From a virus (taxonomy: Duplodnaviria > Caudoviricetes), in IMG/VR virus record IMGVR_UViG_3300009671_000009, positions 1 to 64,000 of that record: DNA of 64,000 bases, one strand, 5' to 3'. The translations under genes were made by a program, and so were the position numbers. Every line of letters starts with the position of its first letter. The first letter of the stretch is position 1. The notes beneath the pieces were generated by a model. The model had not been told where the DNA came from. It saw only the letters and a program-made list of their open reading frames with translations, and did not search any database. Positions 26,227 through 61,577 of this stretch are shown here, in pieces.

Positions 26227-27654
26227 ATGATCAGAAGAGAGCCCTTACCTGAATCATGGGCACCCTTAATTCTTATGAAGGTGCCAGATGATGTTAAGTT
26301 TATAACACAAGAACTTAATAAAGCTGGATATGCGGCCTATCTTGTCGGAGGCGCAGTTCGAGACCTTCTGTTAGGCCTTGAGCCCAAAGACTGGGACGTG
26401 GCCACTAATGCCCCTGTTGATCTTATGTTAGAGATCTTTCTAGGATCTGAACTTGTAGGAGCCTCTTTTGGTGTAGTGTTATGGAAAGGTATCCAAATAG
26501 CCAAATTCCGTCAAGAAGAAGGCTATTCTGACAATAGACATCCTGATGAAGTTAGATTCGTAGGAACCCTTGAAGAAGATCTTGAACGTAGAGACTTCAC
26601 GATCAATGCTATTGCTATTGGACGAGATAGCTCTACAGATCCATTCTGTCAGGTTTTCCCAGAATCTGCACTTAAAGATCTTAATGCGGGTATAATCTCT
26701 GCTGTTGGGAATGCCAACGAAAGATTCAAAGAGGATGCCTTGAGGATGATGAGAGCAGCAAGGTTTACTGCTAAACTTAAAGGATTCGAGATTGACGATC
26801 GCACGTATTATGCAATGATATACAATGCAAAGCTTTTGCAGAATATATCCGCAGAACGAATCCAAGAAGAGCTAAATAAAACTCTTCTTTCACAGAATCC
26901 TGTGAAGGGTATTGATGTAATGAGGCATACGCATCTTTTAGAATATGTCATTCCTGAAATGCAGTCATGTTATGGTTTTCCTCAAAACGGATGGCACCGC
27001 TATGATGTGTTCACTCACATCTTAAAAGTATTGTCATATACCGCTGAAAGATCTGATTCTCTTACGATGAGACTAGCCGCTTTATTCCACGATATTGGAA
27101 AACCAGCAAGTCTTACTATTGATGAGGAAGGTAAGCGGCATTTCTATGGAAATCGATCTGATATCCCAACGCATTGGGATGCAGGAGCAAACATTACTTA
27201 TAAAAGGTTAAGCGAGCTTCGCTATGACAAACAAACTATTAAAGATGTTTGCACTCTTGTAAGAAATCATATGAATATAAATAAAGACGGCTTGTCACCA
27301 AAGGCTATTCGTAAACGACTTAACAAAGTTGGATATGATATGCTTATAAATCTTGTTGAACTCAAGCGAGCTGACTTTAAAGGAAGCGGAACTGAGAACG
27401 ATGCAGAAATCGATCAATTTATCGATAGTCTCTTAGCTAAAGTGAACCAAGTTACGGAATCAAATCCGCCAACCTCATTAAGACATTTGGCTGTCAATGG
27501 TGATGACATCATAGCAGCTATCGGTGTCAAACCTGGCAAGTGGATTGGTACTGTTCTATCAATAATGATGGATGAAGTATTAAACGATCCATCTAAAAAC
27601 ACAAGAGATTATCTGCTCCAACGAGCAGTTGAAATCTATAAATCAGGGGAGTAG
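26227..27654 (+). CDS. cca: CCA tRNA nucleotidyltransferase with HD domain
   Basis: VGGAVRD, DWDVAT, RRDFTINA, EDALRMMRA, ERI..EL, LFHDIGKP. Confidence 0.93.
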   Translation: MIRREPLPESWAPLILMKVPDDVKFITQELNKAGYAAYLVGGAVRDLLLGLEPKDWDVATNAPVDLMLEIFLGSELVGASFGVVLWKGIQIAKFRQEEGYSDNRHPDEVRFVGTLEEDLERRDFTINAIAIGRDSSTDPFCQVFPESALKDLNAGIISAVGNANERFKEDALRMMRAARFTAKLKGFEIDDRTYYAMIYNAKLLQNISAERIQEELNKTLLSQNPVKGIDVMRHTHLLEYVIPEMQSCYGFPQNGWHRYDVFTHILKVLSYTAERSDSLTMRLAALFHDIGKPASLTIDEEGKRHFYGNRSDIPTHWDAGANITYKRLSELRYDKQTIKDVCTLVRNHMNINKDGLSPKAIRKRLNKVGYDMLINLVELKRADFKGSGTENDAEIDQFIDSLLAKVNQVTESNPPTSLRHLAVNGDDIIAAIGVKPGKWIGTVLSIMMDEVLNDPSKNTRDYLLQRAVEIYKSGE

Positions 27655-31845: not shown

Positions 31846-32288
31846 TATATTATCTACGGAGTGCAAGTACGTAGAGAACGCCCGAACAAGGGGCAACAGT
31901 AGGGCAAACGTTCCACGTCAGTGCCCCTGAGCCACATGTGGCAATAGTCGGCGGGTAATCGCGGATGAGACGCTGCTACGTGGGACACCAAAAAACCATC
32001 CACGTAAGGCAAATGAGTTTCTGGGATGAACCCAGAATTATTTCATTATATGTGGGGTGGCTTTATGATCACTAAGATCAGGCAAGAAGCCTATGTTCCT
32101 ATGCGTCGTGCATTTAATGACTTTAAAATAGTCGTTGATAAACACACTACTGCTAGGAACATCCAACTCTTCGCAGCCTATAAAGCAGTCAGAATTGATT
32201 GCTACGAAGGATCGAAGACTAGGAACAAGAAAAAAACGGCATAATACGAGGGGTATTATTTGCCCCTCGCCCCACACAAATTTATGTA

Positions 32289-32317
32289 TTGACAAAAGTA
32301 ACAAAGCATGGTAGAAT
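32289..32317 (+). promoter_or_regulatory. sigma-A/70 promoter driving the Y-RNA-like array
   Basis: TTGACA-17-TAGAAT with extended TG, 7 nt before unit 1. Confidence 0.85.
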
Positions 32318-32324
32318 AGGAAAT

Positions 32325-32390
32325 GTGAGGCGTTTAAGAAGAGCTACTTCGATTTGGACGAAACACGGCTTTTCTAGCAATTTTCCTCAC
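32325..32390 (+). ncRNA. Y-RNA-like unit 1 (cargo: anticodon-like stem-loop, TTG)
   Basis: GTGAGGCG..TACTTCG...TTTTCCTCAC. Confidence 0.75.
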
Positions 32391-32408
32391 GTATAATAAG
32401 TATATAAG

Positions 32409-32552
32409 ATCAAATGAGGCGTTTTGTGGCGATACTTCGACTTTTTTAGCTAAAGAGGGGTCTGGGTTCGAATCCCAGCTTACAGGGAAACCTGCATGTG
32501 GTGTAACGGGAGCACGTAAAAGGACGCGTCACTACCTTTTTCCTCATTTGAT
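32409..32552 (+). ncRNA. Y-RNA-like unit 2 (YrlA-like permuted tRNA domain)
   Basis: scaffold plus T arm CTGGG-TTCGAAT-CCCAG, GAAA-capped acceptor, D arm. Confidence 0.8.
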
Positions 32553-32566
32553 TTAAATAAGATTAC

Positions 32567-32709
32567 AACTGAGGCGTTAGAAAGAGTTACTTCGCATTAG
32601 GAGCGCGGCTGTGGAGGTTCAAGTCCTTCTCCCCTGACCAATTTTATATCAGGGGATAGCTTAACTGGCAGAGCACGTAAACGTTACTTTTTCGCTATTT
32701 TCCTCAGTT
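32567..32709 (+). ncRNA. Y-RNA-like unit 3 (complete permuted tRNA with internal CCA, TAG loop)
   Basis: scaffold plus T arm, TCCCCTG-A-CCA, linker, CAGGGGA-TA-D arm. Confidence 0.85.
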
Positions 32710-32718
32710 AAGTTTAAC

Positions 32719-32813
32719 AAATGGGGCGCTTGATTGGGATACTTCGAGGATTATCAAATCTTCACCAGGGCGGCAGCCGACATACATGCACCTAGCCTAT
32801 ATTTACCCCATTT
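32719..32813 (+). ncRNA. Y-RNA-like unit 4
   Basis: compensatory GGGG/CCCC outer stem; CG-N11-TACTTCG. Confidence 0.75.
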
Positions 32814-32827
32814 AAATAAGCTCAATA

Positions 32828-32969
32828 ACAGTGAGGCGTCAGATAGAGTTACTTCGTTGCAGCCAAAAATTGCGATATAGTTTAACACTGGTTAAAACAC
32901 CAGGGAAACCTGGAGAATTCGGTTCAAGTCCGTCTTAATAGGAACTTTGTCGCCCATTTACCTCACTGT
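32828..32969 (+). ncRNA. Y-RNA-like unit 5 (tRNA permuted at the T-arm/acceptor junction)
   Basis: scaffold plus GTTGCA-G-CCA, TGCGATA-TA-D arm, GAAA-capped anticodon stem, T arm. Confidence 0.8.
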
Positions 32970-32976
32970 AAATTTT

Positions 32977-33108
32977 AAACTTGGGTGTCGGTTACATACC
33001 GACAGGGAAACTAGATAGGGACGTGCCGCCCCTAATAACCTACCATTACCCGTTCTACTGCTTCTAGTGCTGTAGGTAGACGCTGTGAAAGTCAGCAAGC
33101 CCAAGTTT
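32977..33108 (+). ncRNA. structured RNA inside the array lacking the Y-like scaffold
   Basis: AAACTTGGG/CCCAAGTTT closing stem, several internal hairpins. Confidence 0.55.
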
Positions 33109-33124
33109 TTATAAAGTTTAATAG

Positions 33125-33340
33125 TAAGCGAAGCGCTTGAAGGGGTTACTTCTTAATTCTAAAAGATGAATTGGTTTAGAAGGAAACTTCTATCTCAAGC
33201 ACGACGGGCGGGTGCCACCCCGATATAACGGCATGGCTGCGTGAGCCAAGAGCGCTTTCACCCTAATGGCCTCCTTTCCCAAGTTAAGGCCCCTTTCGAG
33301 GATAATGGGTGGGTTCCCTCTTCACTAATTTCTTCGCTTA
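33125..33340 (+). ncRNA. Y-RNA-like unit 6 (large non-tRNA cargo)
   Basis: compensatory GAAG/CTTC outer stem; CG-N11-TACTTC. Confidence 0.75.
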
Positions 33341-33386
33341 TTTAAGTTTCCCTTGATGGGTTTCCATTATAAGCATCACTCCTTCA

Positions 33387-33485
33387 TAACTAAACGAGGC
33401 GACAGTAAGGGATACTTCGCACAAGAACCTGGCCTAGAGCTTGGTAAAAAAACGAGCCTTTACAGCCATTTCCCTCGTTTAGTTA
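33387..33485 (+). ncRNA. Y-RNA-like unit 7
   Basis: TAACTAAACGAGG/CCTCGTTTAGTTA; GTAAGGG/CCTTTAC. Confidence 0.8.
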
Positions 33486-33548
33486 CGTAATCAAAGTGAG
33501 ATTTTACCTCGCTTTAAAATAAAAGTTTGTCCACTAAATTATACAACT

Positions 33549-33948: not shown

Positions 33949-33990
33949 AACGGGAGTGGTCTATCTAAAGGTAGATTGCTCACGTTTTTT
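33949..33990 (+). terminator. hairpin plus T-run between the array and the Ro60 gene (terminator or attenuator)
   Basis: AACG..GAGTGGTCTATC/GGTAGATTGCTC..CGTT then TTTT. Confidence 0.5.
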
Positions 33991-34016: not shown

Positions 34017-35519
34017 ATGGCAAGAGTAAAACAAATGTTTGGCACTCCGCAAATTCCTGTTGCGGACACCACGAATCGTGATGGGTATGATGCTTACACC
34101 CGAAGCATCTACGAGCAATTCGTTCAAACTCTGTTCTGCAATACACTGGGTAATACCTACTATGCAGACAGCAAAGAAATGCTCAAAGAAGCCAGCAAAG
34201 TGCACCAAGACATGCTGAAGGAAGACAAGTTCTTCTTTGCTGACGCGCTACCCGTAGCACGCCAAGAAGGGTGCATGAAACTTCAACCTGTCTATGCTCT
34301 GTCTTTGTTAGCTGCAACCGACCCAGGCTTGTTTGAAAAAACATTCCCTGGAGTGGTATTGATCCCATCCGATCTCCAAGACTTCATGACTATCCTTGAT
34401 AGTGCTGGTCGTGGACAAGGTGGCCGCGCTGTAAAGCGAACAGTTGCCAACTGGATGAATGAAAAGATGTCCGAATACTGGGCGATTAAATACGACGGTG
34501 ACGCTCGTGGCTATTCTCTCGGTGATTTGGTTCAGACCATTCATCCGAAACCTAAGAACAGCTTTGTCTCTGGTCTTTATGGTTACTTAATCGGCTCAGA
34601 AAAGGTTAATCTTGCAGAGTACAAGCAGTTAACTGCTTATCAGGCTCTGAAGAAGACGACCGATCCGAAGGAACAGATTCGTCTGGTGCGCGAAGGCAGA
34701 CTTCCCCACGAAGTCGTGACTGGCGTAACCAAAATGAGTCCCGACCTTTGGGACGCTCTTGTCCAAGATATGCCTGTCTTTGCTACCTTACGTAACCTGA
34801 ATGCCCTGGATAGGGTTGGTGTCCTCGACAAAAATCGTAAGATTATCGAAGAGAGACTCACCAATCCTGAAATACTGGCTAAGTCCAAGATTCTGCCGTT
34901 CAGGTTCCTAAATGCCTTCGACAACGTATCCAAGGCGTGGGTCAAAGATGCTCTACGGTCGGCGGTTGAAGCTACCTTCAATAACCTACCTGAGATCTCT
35001 GGCAAAACTGCGATCTTCTTGGACGTCTCTGGGTCGATGAGCGGAGAATATTTGAAGATCGGTTCGGTCTTCGCAATAGCTCTCTACAAAAAGACTCGTG
35101 GCAACGGTTTGTTCTGGTTGTTCGATACTCGTGTATTTGATGGACAACCTTCATTGCATGATTCGATCTTAACCCAAGCAAACAAAATCCACACCAGAGG
35201 CGGCACCAATACAGGTGCTCCGATGCGAAAATTATGGCAAGACCGTGAAAAAGTAGACAACATCATCATGATTACTGATGAACAGCAAAACACTGGGAAT
35301 CCGTTTTATGGTGAGTTAGCTGAATATCGGAGACACATTAACCCGAATGTAAAAACATTCATTATTGATATCTCTGGTTATCGGCAAGCCATGGTTCCTC
35401 AAGGCGATCCGAATACTTTCTACATCTACGGATGGTCGGATCAAGTCCTCAACTATATTTCAATGGCCTCCAAAGGCTTTGGAACTATCGTTGATGCGAT
35501 CAAAGCCAAAAGAAAGTAA
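34017..35519 (+). CDS. rsr: Ro60/TROVE domain RNA-binding protein (Rsr) with C-terminal vWA
   Basis: TNRDGYDAY, NTYY, MP..ATLRNLN, ILPFRFL.A, vWA DVSGSM and ITDEQ, GWSD. Confidence 0.93.
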   Translation: MARVKQMFGTPQIPVADTTNRDGYDAYTRSIYEQFVQTLFCNTLGNTYYADSKEMLKEASKVHQDMLKEDKFFFADALPVARQEGCMKLQPVYALSLLAATDPGLFEKTFPGVVLIPSDLQDFMTILDSAGRGQGGRAVKRTVANWMNEKMSEYWAIKYDGDARGYSLGDLVQTIHPKPKNSFVSGLYGYLIGSEKVNLAEYKQLTAYQALKKTTDPKEQIRLVREGRLPHEVVTGVTKMSPDLWDALVQDMPVFATLRNLNALDRVGVLDKNRKIIEERLTNPEILAKSKILPFRFLNAFDNVSKAWVKDALRSAVEATFNNLPEISGKTAIFLDVSGSMSGEYLKIGSVFAIALYKKTRGNGLFWLFDTRVFDGQPSLHDSILTQANKIHTRGGTNTGAPMRKLWQDREKVDNIIMITDEQQNTGNPFYGELAEYRRHINPNVKTFIIDISGYRQAMVPQGDPNTFYIYGWSDQVLNYISMASKGFGTIVDAIKAKRK

Positions 35520-37096: not shown

Positions 37097-37174
37097 GGTG
37101 ATGGTAGCTTAATTGGCTAGAGCCCCAGACTGTGAATCTGGAGAGTGCGAGTTCGAATCTCGTCCTTCACCCCA
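37097..37174 (+). tRNA. tRNA-His(GTG)
   Basis: G-1:C73, CCAGA-CTGTGAA-TCTGG, CCA. Confidence 0.92.
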
Positions 37175-60468: not shown

Positions 60469-61577
60469 TTGTTGAAATTGTCAGAATGAAATCTATGGAA
60501 AAGATTCCTACTGCTGATACTCTTTTAATTACTCAAGTAAAAGGCTGGTATTGTATCCTCAAAGATGATGGTACAATTAAGGATGGGGATCTTGCAGTAT
60601 ACATACCTATCGATTCAATCGTCCCTAACGAATTAGCTGACAAGTACAATCTCGAATACCTTAAAAATGGCAGTCGAGTTCGTACAGTCAAGCTCAGAGG
60701 CTACATAAGTCAGGGACTTGTTCTTCCTATTGATTGTCTCCCCGATGGAGACTGGAAAGAGGGCGACGATGTAGCTGAAGTTCTTGGTATTAAGAAATGG
60801 GAACCACCCAGTGCTGCTTGGCAACAGCCAGCAGCTAAGGGTAAGCGCACACGGAGCATGAAGAACAATCCCAATCCAGACTTTCGTAAATACACAGATA
60901 TTGACAATATCAAAAACTATCCAGGTATTTTCAATGAAGGTGACGAAGTTGTAGTCACAGAAAAGATACACGGTACGAATTTCAGAGTAGCGTACATAAA
61001 AAGATATACCAAAGGGGTATGGAGCAAGATTATATCTTGGCTCCTAGGAAAATACCAATTCCTAGTAGGTTCACACAATGTTCAGATCGGAGAAGGTCGT
61101 GAATGTGCATTTTATGGCGCTGACGTGTATAGCAAAATTGCTAAGCGGTATAAGCTGTACGACGTCATGAAAGAAAACCCTGGCTGTGAACTCTTCGGTG
61201 AAATCTACGGAGTTGACAGCGATACAGGGGCTAAGATCCAAGACCTTACATACGGAAAACCCGAACTTGACGTTGTATTTTTTGATCTTATCAAGGATGG
61301 ACAGTATGTGCCATTCGATGAGTTCATGAACTTCTGCAATCGATACAGCTTACCCACTGTGCCACTGCTATTCAGAGGGATTTTGACCCAAGGTATCATA
61401 GAAGCCTGTACTGCAGGCGAATCAGTGCTGGCCAACATTAATGGCGCTAAACAAATTCGTGAGGGAGCTGTTGTTAAGGATCCACTGGAGACCAGTCATC
61501 CAAGACTGGGTCGTAAGATACTTAAATCAATTAGCGAAGATTACCTATTACGTAAAGACGGTACTGAAAATCACTGA
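60456..61577 (+). CDS. RNA ligase, DRB0094/Rnl2-like family
   Basis: N-terminal OB fold (IP.AD, LRG.ISQGL); EKIHGTN, GEIYG, FFD, REGAVVK, KSISEDYL. Confidence 0.9.
   Translation: MSKLIVEIVRMKSMEKIPTADTLLITQVKGWYCILKDDGTIKDGDLAVYIPIDSIVPNELADKYNLEYLKNGSRVRTVKLRGYISQGLVLPIDCLPDGDWKEGDDVAEVLGIKKWEPPSAAWQQPAAKGKRTRSMKNNPNPDFRKYTDIDNIKNYPGIFNEGDEVVVTEKIHGTNFRVAYIKRYTKGVWSKIISWLLGKYQFLVGSHNVQIGEGRECAFYGADVYSKIAKRYKLYDVMKENPGCELFGEIYGVDSDTGAKIQDLTYGKPELDVVFFDLIKDGQYVPFDEFMNFCNRYSLPTVPLLFRGILTQGIIEACTAGESVLANINGAKQIREGAVVKDPLETSHPRLGRKILKSISEDYLLRKDGTENH

What the first reader, a model, noticed from the sequence alone, without database searches (positions are those of the whole stretch)
32828..32969. 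Unit 5 uses a different permutation point and an anticodon replaced by GAAA
Seen: the cargo order is acceptor 3' strand (GTTGCA-G-CCA), linker, acceptor 5' strand (TGCGAT), D arm (GTTT/AAAC), CCAGG-GAAA-CCTGG in the anticodon position, then T arm (CGG-TTCAAGT-CCG). The scaffold is therefore attached at the T-arm/acceptor junction. Unit 2 instead caps the acceptor stem with CAGG-GAAA-CCTG, and unit 10 is opened at the anticodon loop. Inference: one array holds at least three topologies that expose different faces of the tRNA L-shape, consistent with diversifying selection against different tRNA-recognising proteins.
Basis: partly seen in the sequence, partly recalled or inferred. Interest (0 to 1): 0.75.

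Follow-up and report, generated by a model that had tools for sequence, protein, structure and literature searches.

The report
Phage Y RNA with re-permuted tRNA mimic
One unit of a ten-unit array of Ro60-associated "Y RNA-like" genes in a 224-kb phage carries an almost complete tRNA look-alike wired into its scaffold at a different point from the described YrlA type, and related phages keep this wiring with compensating base changes, so it is a real, conserved variant of a known RNA class.

Summary
Window 32831-32966 (+) is one unit of a ten-unit array of Y-RNA-like (YrlA-scaffold) genes. The array has one promoter and one terminator and lies directly upstream of a phage Ro60/Rsr (TROVE) gene.

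Four other units (starts 32416, 32571, 33642, 33795) have the published YrlA order: T arm, loop-closed acceptor, D arm. Unit 5 instead runs acceptor 3' strand, GCCA, 5-nt linker, acceptor 5' strand, U8-A9, D arm, 5-bp anticodon stem capped by GAAA, variable loop, T arm. The scaffold therefore enters between tRNA positions 65 and 66.

An ortholog sits in a roughly 17-unit array of another contig (L275:2031-2165). A diverged relative in a sludge metagenome also keeps the architecture. On these three sequences 94% of cells pair, against 36-48% when the partners are slid, and 10 pairs change on both sides. GCCA, the GNRA cap and an R15:Y48 pair are kept. The L275 copy scores 39.4 bits on Rfam's tRNA model.

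A looser analogue (L252) occurs in an unrelated tRNA-rich phage.

The array holds two permutation points, not three. Diversifying selection is not shown; what is seen is structure-preserving change and segmental mosaicism. Function is inferred: an Rsr-bound tRNA mimic showing a different face, possibly cut at the acceptor loop. Verdict: a new variant of a known kind.

The parts
32289..32317 (+). sigma-70-type promoter of the whole array (TTGACA-17-TAGAAT with a TG extension)
   Evidence: 11 of 12 hexamer matches. In RNA library X3 one contig ends at 32288 and the next starts at 32326. This is only a weak hint of a transcription start.
32831..32966 (+). unit 5, the complete Y-RNA-like RNA (scaffold plus tRNA-like cargo)
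32831..32836 (+). outer scaffold stem, 5' strand (GTGAGG); pairs with 32961-32966
   Evidence: Two pairs change on both sides relative to L275 (helix 1).
32835..32842 (+). GGCGTCAG, the local form of the 5' GNCGAAN0-1G motif proposed to contact Rsr
   Evidence: Sequence; motif from PMC4201824. Only 4 of the 6 specified positions match.
32842..32850 (+). inner scaffold stem, 5' strand (GATAGAGTT); pairs with 32943-32951
   Evidence: helix 2: 92.6% of cells paired; U.G, U-A and C-G seen at one pair
32850..32855 (+). conserved scaffold junction TACTTC; its last C takes tRNA position 66
   Evidence: The motif is present in all ten units. C66 pairs with G7 in L275 (pair 25-47).
32856..32861 (+). 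acceptor 3' strand (positions 67-72), GTTGCA
   Evidence: Four of its pairs change on both sides relative to L275 (helix 3).
32862..32865 (+). discriminator G73 plus CCA, internal and not a free end
   Evidence: Identical in the window, the X8 relative and L275. Absent in the L252 analogue.
32866..32870 (+). 5-nt linker AAAAT that closes the acceptor hairpin
   Evidence: L275 has a 5-nt linker of different sequence, ACTTT.
32871..32877 (+). acceptor 5' strand (positions 1-7), TGCGATA
   Evidence: Position 7 faces C66 as an A x C mismatch here, is a G-C pair in L275, and is deleted in X8.
32878..32879 (+). U8-A9 connector
   Evidence: Invariant TA in all three orthologs.
32880..32898 (+). D arm: stem GTTT/AAAC; loop with A14, A15, G18, G19, A21
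   Evidence: Rfam tRNA alignment. Helix 4 is 100% paired, with one pair changed on both sides and two on one side.
32900..32913 (+). anticodon-position hairpin CCAGG-GAAA-CCTGG (5 bp plus a GNRA tetraloop)
   Evidence: The loop is GCAA in X8 and in L275. The A-U pair becomes U-A in L275 (helix 5). The 12-mer CAGGGAAACCTG also occurs at 32483-32494.
32914..32918 (+). variable region AGAA(T); U48 is the candidate Levitt partner of A15
   Evidence: The 15:48 combination is A:U in the window, A:U in L275 and G:C in X8.
32918..32934 (+). T arm: TTCGG-TTCAAGT-CCGTC. Only three Watson-Crick pairs in this copy; five in X8 and in L275.
   Evidence: helix 6
32935..32942 (+). A-rich 3' junction (TTAATAGG) between the T stem and the inner scaffold stem
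   Evidence: An A-rich junction lies at this place in the orthologs (ATAAATGG in X8, AAAAAACGT in L275); several other units of the array have TAAA-containing stretches there.
32943..32951 (+). inner scaffold stem, 3' strand (AACTTTGTC)
32961..32966 (+). outer scaffold stem, 3' strand (CCTCAC), preceded by TTTA
33954..33981 (+). intrinsic terminator-like hairpin after the last unit
   Evidence: 12 pairs followed by a T run
34017..35519 (+). phage Ro60/Rsr gene (500 aa; TROVE plus Ro60 vWA domains), the presumed protein partner
   Evidence: Pfam TROVE, E 9.8e-17. Over 1000 homologs; the closest named ones (TROVE-domain proteins of Thermoanaerobacter/Thermoanaerobacterium) are about 60% identical.

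Best explanation
Unit 5 is a Y-RNA-like non-coding RNA. It is very probably co-transcribed with the other nine units from the promoter at 32289, and its paired 5' and 3' ends form the scaffold shared by all units. That scaffold comprises the outer GAGG/CCUC stem, the GGCG..AG motif, a unit-specific inner stem, and the UACUUC / A-rich internal loop. It is presumed to bind the phage Ro60 (Rsr) ring encoded just downstream.

The effector module is a tRNA mimic that folds into the L shape. It differs from canonical YrlA in how it is wired:
- The tRNA body runs in its natural order: acceptor 5' strand, D arm, anticodon stem, variable loop, T arm.
- The anticodon loop is replaced by a GNRA tetraloop.
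- The acceptor 3' strand plus GCCA lies upstream, joined to position 1 by a 5-nt linker.
- The scaffold therefore leaves the tRNA body between positions 65 and 66, in the middle of the acceptor/T-arm coaxial stack, not at the anticodon end.

Inferred consequence: Rsr would sit beside the acceptor/T minihelix, leaving the elbow and the capped anticodon stem exposed. This Rsr particle would then present, or tether, a different tRNA-binding partner from the canonical units, or none of those that grip the minihelix.

Shown here: the sequence anatomy, conservation and covariation of all helices, tRNA-model similarity, synteny with Rsr, and presence in RNA libraries.
Inferred, not shown: Rsr binding, the L-shaped fold, and partner specificity.
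For: Array membership and scaffold:
- Ten units share GRRGCG-N9-13-YACTTC and lie only in this array, on the strand of Rsr.
- Three other units give sub-threshold Rfam YrlA matches of 34.1, 32.6 and 18.6 bits.
- The same scaffold lies upstream of Rsr in Thermoanaerobacterium and in several phage or metagenome loci.

Fold:
- MFE and centroid structures give four hairpins inside the scaffold.
- The tRNA model aligns at 21.4 bits.
- The ortholog L275:2073-2140 scores 39.4 bits, above the 29-bit cut-off.

Orthologs:
- L275:2031-2165 keeps the unit-specific inner stem: scaffold identity is 79%, cargo paired positions 56%, cargo loops 74%.
- It sits in a partly syntenic array.
- The X8 relative covers the unit collinearly.

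Covariation:
- 94.1% of cells pair, against 36-48% when partners are slid.
- 10 pairs change on both sides, 4 of them in the acceptor helix.
- Only 1 of 500 shuffles reaches the observed values.

Conserved unpaired features: GCCA, U8-A9, the D-loop GG, GNRA (GAAA / GCAA / GCAA), the T loop, and R15:Y48 as A:U, A:U, G:C.

Other support:
- In X8 and L275 the T stem is a full 5 bp.
- RNA libraries of two studies hold the array.
- Published work shows YrlA folds like tRNA and that Y RNAs tether Rsr to partners.
Against: - No experiment shows that this RNA exists as a discrete species, binds Rsr, or folds as drawn.
- The covariation test rests on only three sequences. One of them was rebuilt from a difference table and is known only up to 32953.
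- In the window copy the T stem has just 3 Watson-Crick pairs. Thermodynamic z-scores are modest (-1.95 for the unit, -1.2 for the cargo).
- Unit 5 gives no YrlA match in Rfam at E up to 10.
- In the X8 relative one acceptor pair is broken (A5 to C) with no compensating change listed.
- A helix inserted at 65|66 breaks the direct acceptor-to-T connectivity that a recent survey treats as the core of tRNA mimics. The L shape is therefore not guaranteed.
- A distinct partner for this unit is pure inference.
Confidence: 0.6

Rival explanations
1. Processed two-piece tRNA mimic. RNase P cuts 5' of position 1 (between 32870 and 32871) and the 5-nt trailer is trimmed back to GCCA. The RNA becomes two strands held together by the acceptor and scaffold stems, with a free CCA-3'OH. 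This is what happens to Mycobacterium smegmatis YrlA. The free end could then be repaired by the CCA-adding enzyme or even charged.
For: - GCCA is identical in the window, X8 and L275, while four of the seven acceptor pairs have changed on both sides and the linker sequence differs.
- The linker is 5 nt in both the window and L275.
- The L275 copy has a full 7-bp acceptor stem, with C66-G7.
- The phage itself encodes a CCA-adding-type nucleotidyltransferase and an RNA ligase.
Against: - The window copy has 6 pairs (two G.U) plus an A x C at 7-66, and X8 has 5 of 6. Chen et al. found no cleavage of YrlAs with short acceptor stems.
- The scaffold interrupts the acceptor/T stack that RNase P measures.
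- GCCA could be conserved by descent alone, given only three sequences.
- The L252 analogue has CCCT instead.
Confidence: 0.3
2. Functionally equivalent shuffle. Unit 5 arose by recombination between tandem tRNA-like units. The tRNA fold serves only as a compact, nuclease-resistant cap, and the attachment point has no specific meaning.
For: - The nuclease-protection idea is one of the two published proposals for the tRNA module.
- Several attachment points occur across loci: the anticodon arm; the variable region in L248:551-430, L275:3631 and L240:2344; and 65|66 here.
- Arrays gain and lose units. X8 has 152 extra letters at 32560/32569 and 450 letters replacing 33419-33548.
- A divergence boundary (about 1.6% against about 9%) lies inside unit 5.
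Against: - The same unusual wiring, GCCA and GNRA cap persist between arrays whose Rsr proteins are only 60% identical.
- A similar wiring occurs in an unrelated tRNA-rich phage.
- Loops are more conserved than stems.
Confidence: 0.25
3. Decoy for host tRNA-directed defence. Unit 5 would be a stabilised bait that soaks up a host nuclease or other factor recognising the tRNA elbow, D/anticodon stem or acceptor end.
For: - Context: 24 tRNA genes in the genome, a CCA-adding-type enzyme and an RNA ligase, i.e. a tRNA supply-and-repair toolkit.
- Jumbo-phage TROVE proteins have been placed in RNA-repair and conflict systems (PMC7824862).
- Phage phiLo Ro60 with its Y-like RNAs binds host PNPase (PMC12135203).
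Against: - Unit 5 has no anticodon loop, so it cannot bait anticodon nucleases.
- No defence target is identified.
- No signature of positive selection was measured.
Confidence: 0.15
4. Not a Y RNA: an ordinary or decaying tRNA gene that happens to lie between two scaffold-like repeats.
For: The tRNA body is in natural order, and the L275 copy passes Rfam's tRNA threshold.
Against: - ARAGORN calls no tRNA here.
- The anticodon loop is a 4-nt GNRA in three orthologs.
- The sequence downstream of the T arm cannot pair with the acceptor 5' strand in the window copy, whereas the upstream strand pairs and covaries.
- Both scaffold stems flank the body and covary.
Confidence: 0.03

Closest known systems
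YrlA (Rfam RF02553), the bacterial and phage Y-RNA-like tRNA mimics next to Rsr (Chen et al. 2014, PMC4201824; structure in bioRxiv 10.1101/312249)
   Same: - Lies upstream of Rsr on the same strand.
- Has a terminal stem with a GGCG-type 5' motif.
[quoted passage not shown]
- Its acceptor stem is closed by a loop.
- The neighbouring units at 32416, 32571, 33642 and 33795 have the YrlA order.
   Different: - In YrlA the order is T arm, acceptor hairpin, D arm, and the Y stem replaces the anticodon arm.
- In unit 5 the order is acceptor hairpin, D arm, a complete capped anticodon stem, variable loop, T arm, and the Y stem enters at 65|66.
- Unit 5 does not match RF02553 at all.
Deinococcus radiodurans Yrn1
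   Same: Chen et al. describe Yrn1 as having the opposite orientation of the D-like and T arms relative to YrlA. The stem-loop between them takes the anticodon-arm position, with a 5-bp stem and a short 6-nt loop. Unit 5 has the same order. The L252 analogue even has a 6-nt loop.
   Different: - Yrn1 lacks a full D arm and a variable region, and no separate acceptor hairpin with GCCA is described for it. Its Ro-binding helix resembles that of metazoan Y RNAs.
- Unit 5 has a complete D arm, a variable loop, an acceptor hairpin and the YrlA-type scaffold.
- I did not have the Yrn1 sequence, so this comparison rests on the paper's text.
Circularly permuted tRNA genes of the red alga Cyanidioschyzon merolae, and two-piece (permuted) tmRNA
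   Same: The acceptor 3' part, with CCA, is encoded upstream of the 5' part and joined to it by a short intervening sequence. Several different permutation points occur within one genome or family. This rests on my own knowledge of that literature and was not checked here.
   Different: Those RNAs mature into functional tRNA or tmRNA with free ends and, for the tRNAs, a real anticodon loop. Unit 5 has no anticodon loop, is embedded in a Ro60-type scaffold, and no processing is shown.
Thermus phage phiLo Ro60 with Yrl1 and Yrl2 (PMC12135203)
   Same: A phage-encoded Ro60 with Y-like RNAs encoded just upstream of the gene. Binding of the RNAs to the phage Ro60, and ternary complexes with host PNPase, were shown there.
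   Different: That phage has two RNAs and no tRNA-like permutation is described. Its Ro60 is only about 24% identical to the window's protein.

Membership tests
Y RNA-like / YrlA (RF02553) | Encoded within a few kb of a Ro60/Rsr (TROVE) gene, on the same strand | tested here: met
   Unit 5 lies 1.05 kb upstream of the TROVE ORF at 34017-35519, on the same strand.
Y RNA-like / YrlA (RF02553) | 5' and 3' ends pair into a long stem that carries the 5' GNCGAAN0-1G motif | tested here: inconclusive
   The two-part stem is present and covaries. The motif reads GGCGTCAG, so 4 of the 6 specified positions fit. This whole clade uses GGCG-NN-AG.
Y RNA-like / YrlA (RF02553) | Reaches the Rfam gathering score of 69 bits | tested here: not met
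   No YrlA match for unit 5 at E up to 10. The best sibling units reach 34.1 and 32.6 bits.
Y RNA-like / YrlA (RF02553) | Effector module ordered T arm, acceptor-like stem-loop, D arm, with the Y stem at the anticodon-arm position | tested here: not met
   The order is acceptor hairpin, D arm, anticodon hairpin, T arm, and the Y stem enters at 65|66.
Y RNA-like / YrlA (RF02553) | tRNA-type tertiary-contact nucleotides, including covarying 15:48 | tested here: met
   U8, A14, G18, G19, A21, T54, T55, C56 and A58 are present. The 15:48 combination is A:U, A:U, G:C in the three orthologs.
Y RNA-like / YrlA (RF02553) | Bound and stabilised by Rsr | not testable with these tools
   Needs EMSA or co-immunoprecipitation.
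tRNA (RF00005) | Cloverleaf that reaches the 29-bit gathering score | tested here: inconclusive
   The window copy scores 21.4 bits over model positions 7-64. The ortholog L275:2073-2140 scores 39.4 bits. ARAGORN calls nothing here.
tRNA (RF00005) | 7-nt anticodon loop | tested here: not met
   The loop is a 4-nt GNRA in all three orthologs.
tRNA (RF00005) | Acceptor stem formed by free 5' and 3' ends, with the 3' strand downstream of the T arm | tested here: not met
   The 3' strand lies upstream and is joined to position 1 by a 5-nt linker. The sequence downstream of the T arm does not pair in the window copy.
Yrn1-type Y RNA (D. radiodurans) | D-like element, then anticodon-like arm, then T arm, inside the Y stem | tested here: met
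   The order matches the description in PMC4201824.
Yrn1-type Y RNA (D. radiodurans) | Metazoan-like Ro-binding helix with both strands conserved; sequence homology to Yrn1 | not tested
   No Yrn1 sequence was at hand. The scaffold here is the YrlA/Bacillota type.
Permuted tRNA gene (C. merolae type) | Matures by circularisation and end processing into a functional tRNA with an anticodon | tested here: not met
   There is no anticodon loop, and no bulge-helix-bulge motif was looked for. RNA-library contigs span the unit without a break, though contigs cannot show RNA ends.

The most novel reading that the evidence does not exclude
A clade of large phages carries arrays of 10 to about 17 Ro60-scaffolded tRNA mimics that act as a display library. 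The same tRNA core would be wired to the Ro60-binding stem at different backbone positions (anticodon arm, variable region, 65|66), so that each particle offers a different tRNA face. Some would offer a processable CCA end. Together they would capture, recruit or misdirect distinct host tRNA-processing or tRNA-targeting defence proteins during infection. On this reading the unit 5 type is the member that hides the acceptor/T minihelix while keeping a conserved GCCA and a GNRA-capped anticodon stem.
Probability: 0.15. Interest if true: 0.85.

Novelty: new variant of a known kind. Interest (0 to 1): 0.6.

Why it matters
Bacterial Y RNAs are known tRNA mimics whose tRNA-like module still has no established partner. 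This phage and its relatives carry many Y-like RNAs side by side, with the same scaffold but the tRNA core attached at different points.

That amounts to a natural structure-function series. If the units bind different proteins, comparing them would show which face of the tRNA shape matters. That would make the long-open question of what the YrlA tRNA module does directly testable.

It also shows that a helix can be inserted at position 65|66, in the middle of the acceptor/T stack, while the other tRNA signatures are kept. This is relevant to how tRNA mimics are recognised and searched for. The conserved internal GCCA raises the possibility of a Ro60-tethered RNA with a processable tRNA-like 3' end.

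Tried and rejected
Searches that found no usable relative:
- The single-protein Rsr search of viral contigs found nothing.
- Two scaffold-only patterns in viral contigs were too unspecific: 117 single chance hits each.
- The unit-5-type pattern gave 0 hits in viral contigs. A pattern built from what unit 5 and L252 share also gave 0.
- The same unit-5-type pattern gave 10 metagenome hits and 4 genome hits. Most were ordinary tRNA genes or coding DNA behind a chance motif. Only L252, L257 and L256/L258 looked like Y-type units.
- BLAST against isolated phages found no unit 5 or L252 homolog.

Relatives without useful variation:
- The near-identical genome L003 shows no variation.
- All six copies of the L252-type unit are identical. 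The neighbouring protein of that unit has no other homologs.

Contigs cut short by assembly:
- The 83%-identical Rsr contig (L001) begins only 46 nt upstream of the gene. L002 begins inside a unit.

Weak or uninformative results:
- Thermodynamic z-scores (-1.95 and -1.2) are not decisive.
- tRNA ancestry: the nearest phage tRNA is tRNA-His(GTG) at 37098, with 54 of 75 positions identical. That is too weak to name a donor.
- RNA evidence: metatranscriptome contigs hold the array, but contigs cannot show ends, strand or level. Stretches without cover in X3 and X6 are not evidence.
- Covariance model R1 found no further unit-5-type copies among 26 held sources; it mainly matches the scaffold.
- Two reviews were not held in the library.

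Considered and dropped:
- The scaffold as a ribozyme or other known RNA: there was no Rfam match.
- The L275 G3.U70 pair as an alanine identity signal: the window copy has the G.U at 4-69 instead.
Full report
**What is at the coordinates**

The window belongs to a 224,466-bp virus record with direct terminal repeats. It carries 24 tRNA genes.

Between a strong promoter-like site (32289-32317) and a terminator-like hairpin (33954-33981) lie ten units. They share a 5' motif GRRGCG-N9-13-YACTTC and a 3' TTTNCCTC. In the whole genome the 5' motif occurs only in this array on this strand; one chance match lies on the other strand. A 500-aa TROVE/Ro60 (Rsr) ORF follows at 34017-35519.

Rfam's YrlA model gives sub-threshold matches to three units, at 34.1, 32.6 and 18.6 bits against a cut-off of 69. 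The same scaffold precedes Rsr in several other places:
- Thermoanaerobacterium thermosaccharolyticum (L272, three units);
- a related assembly (L276, two units);
- several phage or metagenome loci: L002, L239, L248, L257, L273, L277.

The array is therefore a set of Y-RNA-like genes.

My numbering counts the scaffold-less RNA at 32975-33112 as a unit.

**Check of the observation**

After TACTTC the sequence runs:
- GTTGCA, then G-CCA, then AAAAT, then TGCGAT, then A;
- U8-A9;
- D arm GTTT/AAAC, with an 11-nt loop holding A14, A15, G18, G19 and A21;
- A26;
- CCAGG-GAAA-CCTGG;
- variable AGAA(T);
- T arm with loop TTCAAGT;
- an A-rich junction and the 3' scaffold.

Counting back from U8, the acceptor 5' strand occupies exactly seven positions. 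It pairs with the upstream strand at six of them (two G.U), with an A x C at 7-66.

RNAfold's MFE and centroid structures recover the four hairpins within the two scaffold stems. Rfam's tRNA model aligns 32877-32935 to positions 7-64 at 21.4 bits.

The weak points of this copy are a T stem with only three Watson-Crick pairs and modest folding z-scores.

**Comparative evidence**

Three independent sources bear on the unit.

*(a) A relative in an activated-sludge DNA run (X8).* One contig aligns collinearly from 32285 to 33251. Inside unit 5 it differs at 14 positions and has three 1-nt deletions. Applying these to the window sequence gives the following:
- G10-C25 becomes G.U.
- The tetraloop becomes GCAA, still GNRA.
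- The changes at 32918 and 32933 create pairs 49-65 and 50-64, so the T stem is a full 5 bp.
- The D loop shortens to the canonical AGCTGGTTA.
- Position 15 changes A to G while a C appears at 48. This is the R15:Y48 switch that Chen et al. used as evidence for the tRNA fold in YrlA.
- One acceptor pair (5-68) is broken, and the mismatched position 7 is deleted.
- GCCA is unchanged.

*(b) Locus L275.* This is a 23-kb JGI contig whose Rsr is 60% identical to the window's. It carries about 17 units, partly in the same order as the window's. The unit at 2031-2165 is an ortholog of unit 5. It reads: TACTTC, GAATCC, GCCA, ACTTT, GGGTTT, G-TA, D arm GCTT/GAGC, CCTGG-GCAA-CCAGG, AGGT, T arm GTGGG-TTCAATT-CCCAC.
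- The unit-specific inner scaffold stem is almost unchanged, while the cargo stems have been rewritten. Identity is 79% in the scaffold, 56% at paired cargo positions and 74% at unpaired cargo positions.
- Its tRNA body scores 39.4 bits on RF00005, above the threshold.

On the three-sequence alignment, the structure I named scores as follows:
- 94.1% of cells form standard pairs, against 36-48% for slid partners.
- 10 of 36 pairs change on both sides: four in the acceptor helix, two in the outer stem, and one each in the inner, D, anticodon and T helices.
- Only 1 of 500 shuffles reaches the observed values.

Three sequences are few, and one was rebuilt from a difference table. Still, the signal is consistent across all helices.

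*(c) A looser analogue, L252.* It is identical in six samples and lies between tRNA-His and tRNA-Asp genes of another tRNA-rich phage. It has the same order of elements: a 5-bp hairpin with a 9-nt loop, a D arm, the hairpin CCAGC-CCAAAA-GCTGG, and a T arm next to the 3' scaffold. It has no GCCA and no tRNA-model match.

That condition is not met.

**How many topologies**

The units at 32416, 32571, 33642 and 33795 all have the published YrlA order: T arm, loop-closed acceptor, D arm, with the scaffold at the anticodon arm. The literature already describes this as a circularly permuted tRNA.

The 32416 unit differs only in capping the acceptor with GAAA. Such caps are normal in bacterial relatives: GAAA and AAAT in L272, GGAA in L275:805.

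This array therefore holds two permutation points, not three. A third point does exist elsewhere: the T arm follows the scaffold directly in L248:551-430, L275:3631 and L240:2344, and L248:551-430 also ends in a closed anticodon-like hairpin, so the opening is at the variable region.

Among the scaffolded units in the loci I held, only unit 5, L275:2031 and the L252 type have the T arm last together with a full tRNA body.

**Relation to the literature**

Chen et al. 2014 describe Deinococcus Yrn1 as having the opposite orientation of the D-like and T arms. In Yrn1 the stem-loop between them takes the anticodon-arm position and has a short loop. Unit 5 shares that order but differs in three ways:
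- it has the YrlA-type scaffold;
- it has a complete D arm and a variable loop;
- it has an extra acceptor hairpin with GCCA.

Full-text searches found no description of this wiring or of arrays this large. Known phage cases have one to a few Y-like RNAs.

**Mechanism**

Shown:
- the anatomy, conservation and covariation of the unit;
- synteny with Rsr;
- one promoter and one terminator for the array;
- presence of the array in metatranscriptome assemblies of two studies. In one of them the contig depth varies between 6 and 59 across adjacent pieces, and a contig starts at 32326, a few bases after the -10 box. These are weak hints only.

Inferred:
- the scaffold binds the phage Rsr;
- the cargo folds into the L shape;
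- because the scaffold leaves between 65 and 66, Rsr sits beside the acceptor/T minihelix instead of at the anticodon end. This unit would then expose the elbow and the capped anticodon stem, and would hinder proteins that grip the minihelix.

A sub-hypothesis also deserves testing. GCCA and the 5-nt linker are conserved, L275 has a 7-bp acceptor, M. smegmatis YrlA is a known precedent, and the phage encodes its own CCA-adding-type enzyme and RNA ligase. RNase P cleavage at the acceptor loop, giving a two-piece RNA with a free CCA end, is therefore plausible. The short, mismatched acceptor of the window copy and the interrupted acceptor/T stack argue against it.

**On diversifying selection**

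In the X8 comparison, divergence is about 1.6% from 32569 to 32874 and about 9% from 32875 onward. The boundary falls inside the unit 5 acceptor hairpin. X8 also has inserted or replaced units. This looks like mosaic recombination plus structure-preserving drift. It is not evidence for diversifying selection, and that claim remains open.

**Verdict**

It is a new variant of the Y-RNA-like tRNA mimics: a new attachment point with a GNRA-capped anticodon stem and an internal GCCA. Function is inferred.

Noticed in passing
L275:262-3880 (JGI 3300068451, Ga0613826_001831); L240:1495-2850; L277:3585-4870: Other contigs carry large arrays of the same scaffold upstream of Rsr: about 17 units in L275, at least 6 in L240 (with a tmRNA and tRNAs) and at least 5 in L277. 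L277 and L001 share the downstream synteny Rsr, DUF5838, sigma-70 region-2 protein with the window. Bacterial loci (L272, L276) have only 2-3 units.
   Followed up: partly
window 32560-32569 and 33419-33548: The sludge relative (run X8) has 152 extra letters between 32560 and 32569, and 450 letters in place of 33419-33548. Units are therefore gained, lost or replaced between close relatives. I could not read the inserted sequences.
   Followed up: no
window 32483-32494 and 32901-32912 (also 33003-33014): The same 12-mer CAGGGAAACCTG caps the acceptor-like stem of the 32416 unit and the anticodon-position stem of unit 5. A near copy, CAGGGAAACTAG, lies in the scaffold-less RNA at 32975-33112. 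The GNRA character is kept in relatives (GCAA, GGAA, GAAA).
   Followed up: partly
L248:551-430 (minus strand); L275:3631-3736; L240:2344-2440: In these units the T arm follows the scaffold directly. In L248 the order is then acceptor hairpin with GCCA, D arm, and a closed anticodon-like hairpin CCCCA-CGCAA-TGGGG. This is a further permutation point, at the variable region.
   Followed up: partly
L275:2056-2079: The ortholog of unit 5 has a full 7-bp acceptor stem with a G3.U70 wobble, the classical alanine identity pair, followed by GCCA. The window copy has its G.U at 4-69 instead, so this may be coincidence.
   Followed up: no
window 26335-26634 and 60942-61529: The phage encodes a CCA-adding/poly(A)-polymerase-family nucleotidyltransferase (PF01743, 88 bits, among the tRNA genes) and an RNA ligase (PF09414, 87 bits). 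No RtcB was found in the genome.
   Followed up: partly
L264:2627-2755 (= L252:917-1045, minus strand): A unit-5-like Y scaffold unit stands alone between tRNA-His and tRNA-Asp in another phage contig. That contig has 17 tRNA genes and a tmRNA in 11 kb, and no TROVE gene is called within the 11-kb and 8.5-kb loci that were read. The rest of the 47.9-kb contig could not be searched.
   Followed up: partly
L275:1422-1656: The counterpart of the window's 32571 unit has a much longer insert than the window's 9-nt AT-rich spacer between the acceptor 3' strand plus CCA and the acceptor 5' strand. L248:786-640 has a hairpin at the same place.
   Followed up: no
window 37098-37174: Among the 24 phage tRNAs, tRNA-His(GTG) is the most similar to the de-permuted unit 5 body, with 54 of 75 positions identical. 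The L252 analogue also lies right after a tRNA-His gene. This is too weak to claim ancestry.
   Followed up: partly
window 33122-33412: In one metatranscriptome (X3) the contig covering the large 33131 unit has about 3 to 10 times the depth of the neighbouring array contigs. A read-through into Illumina adapter sequence marks a fragment end at 33412.
   Followed up: no
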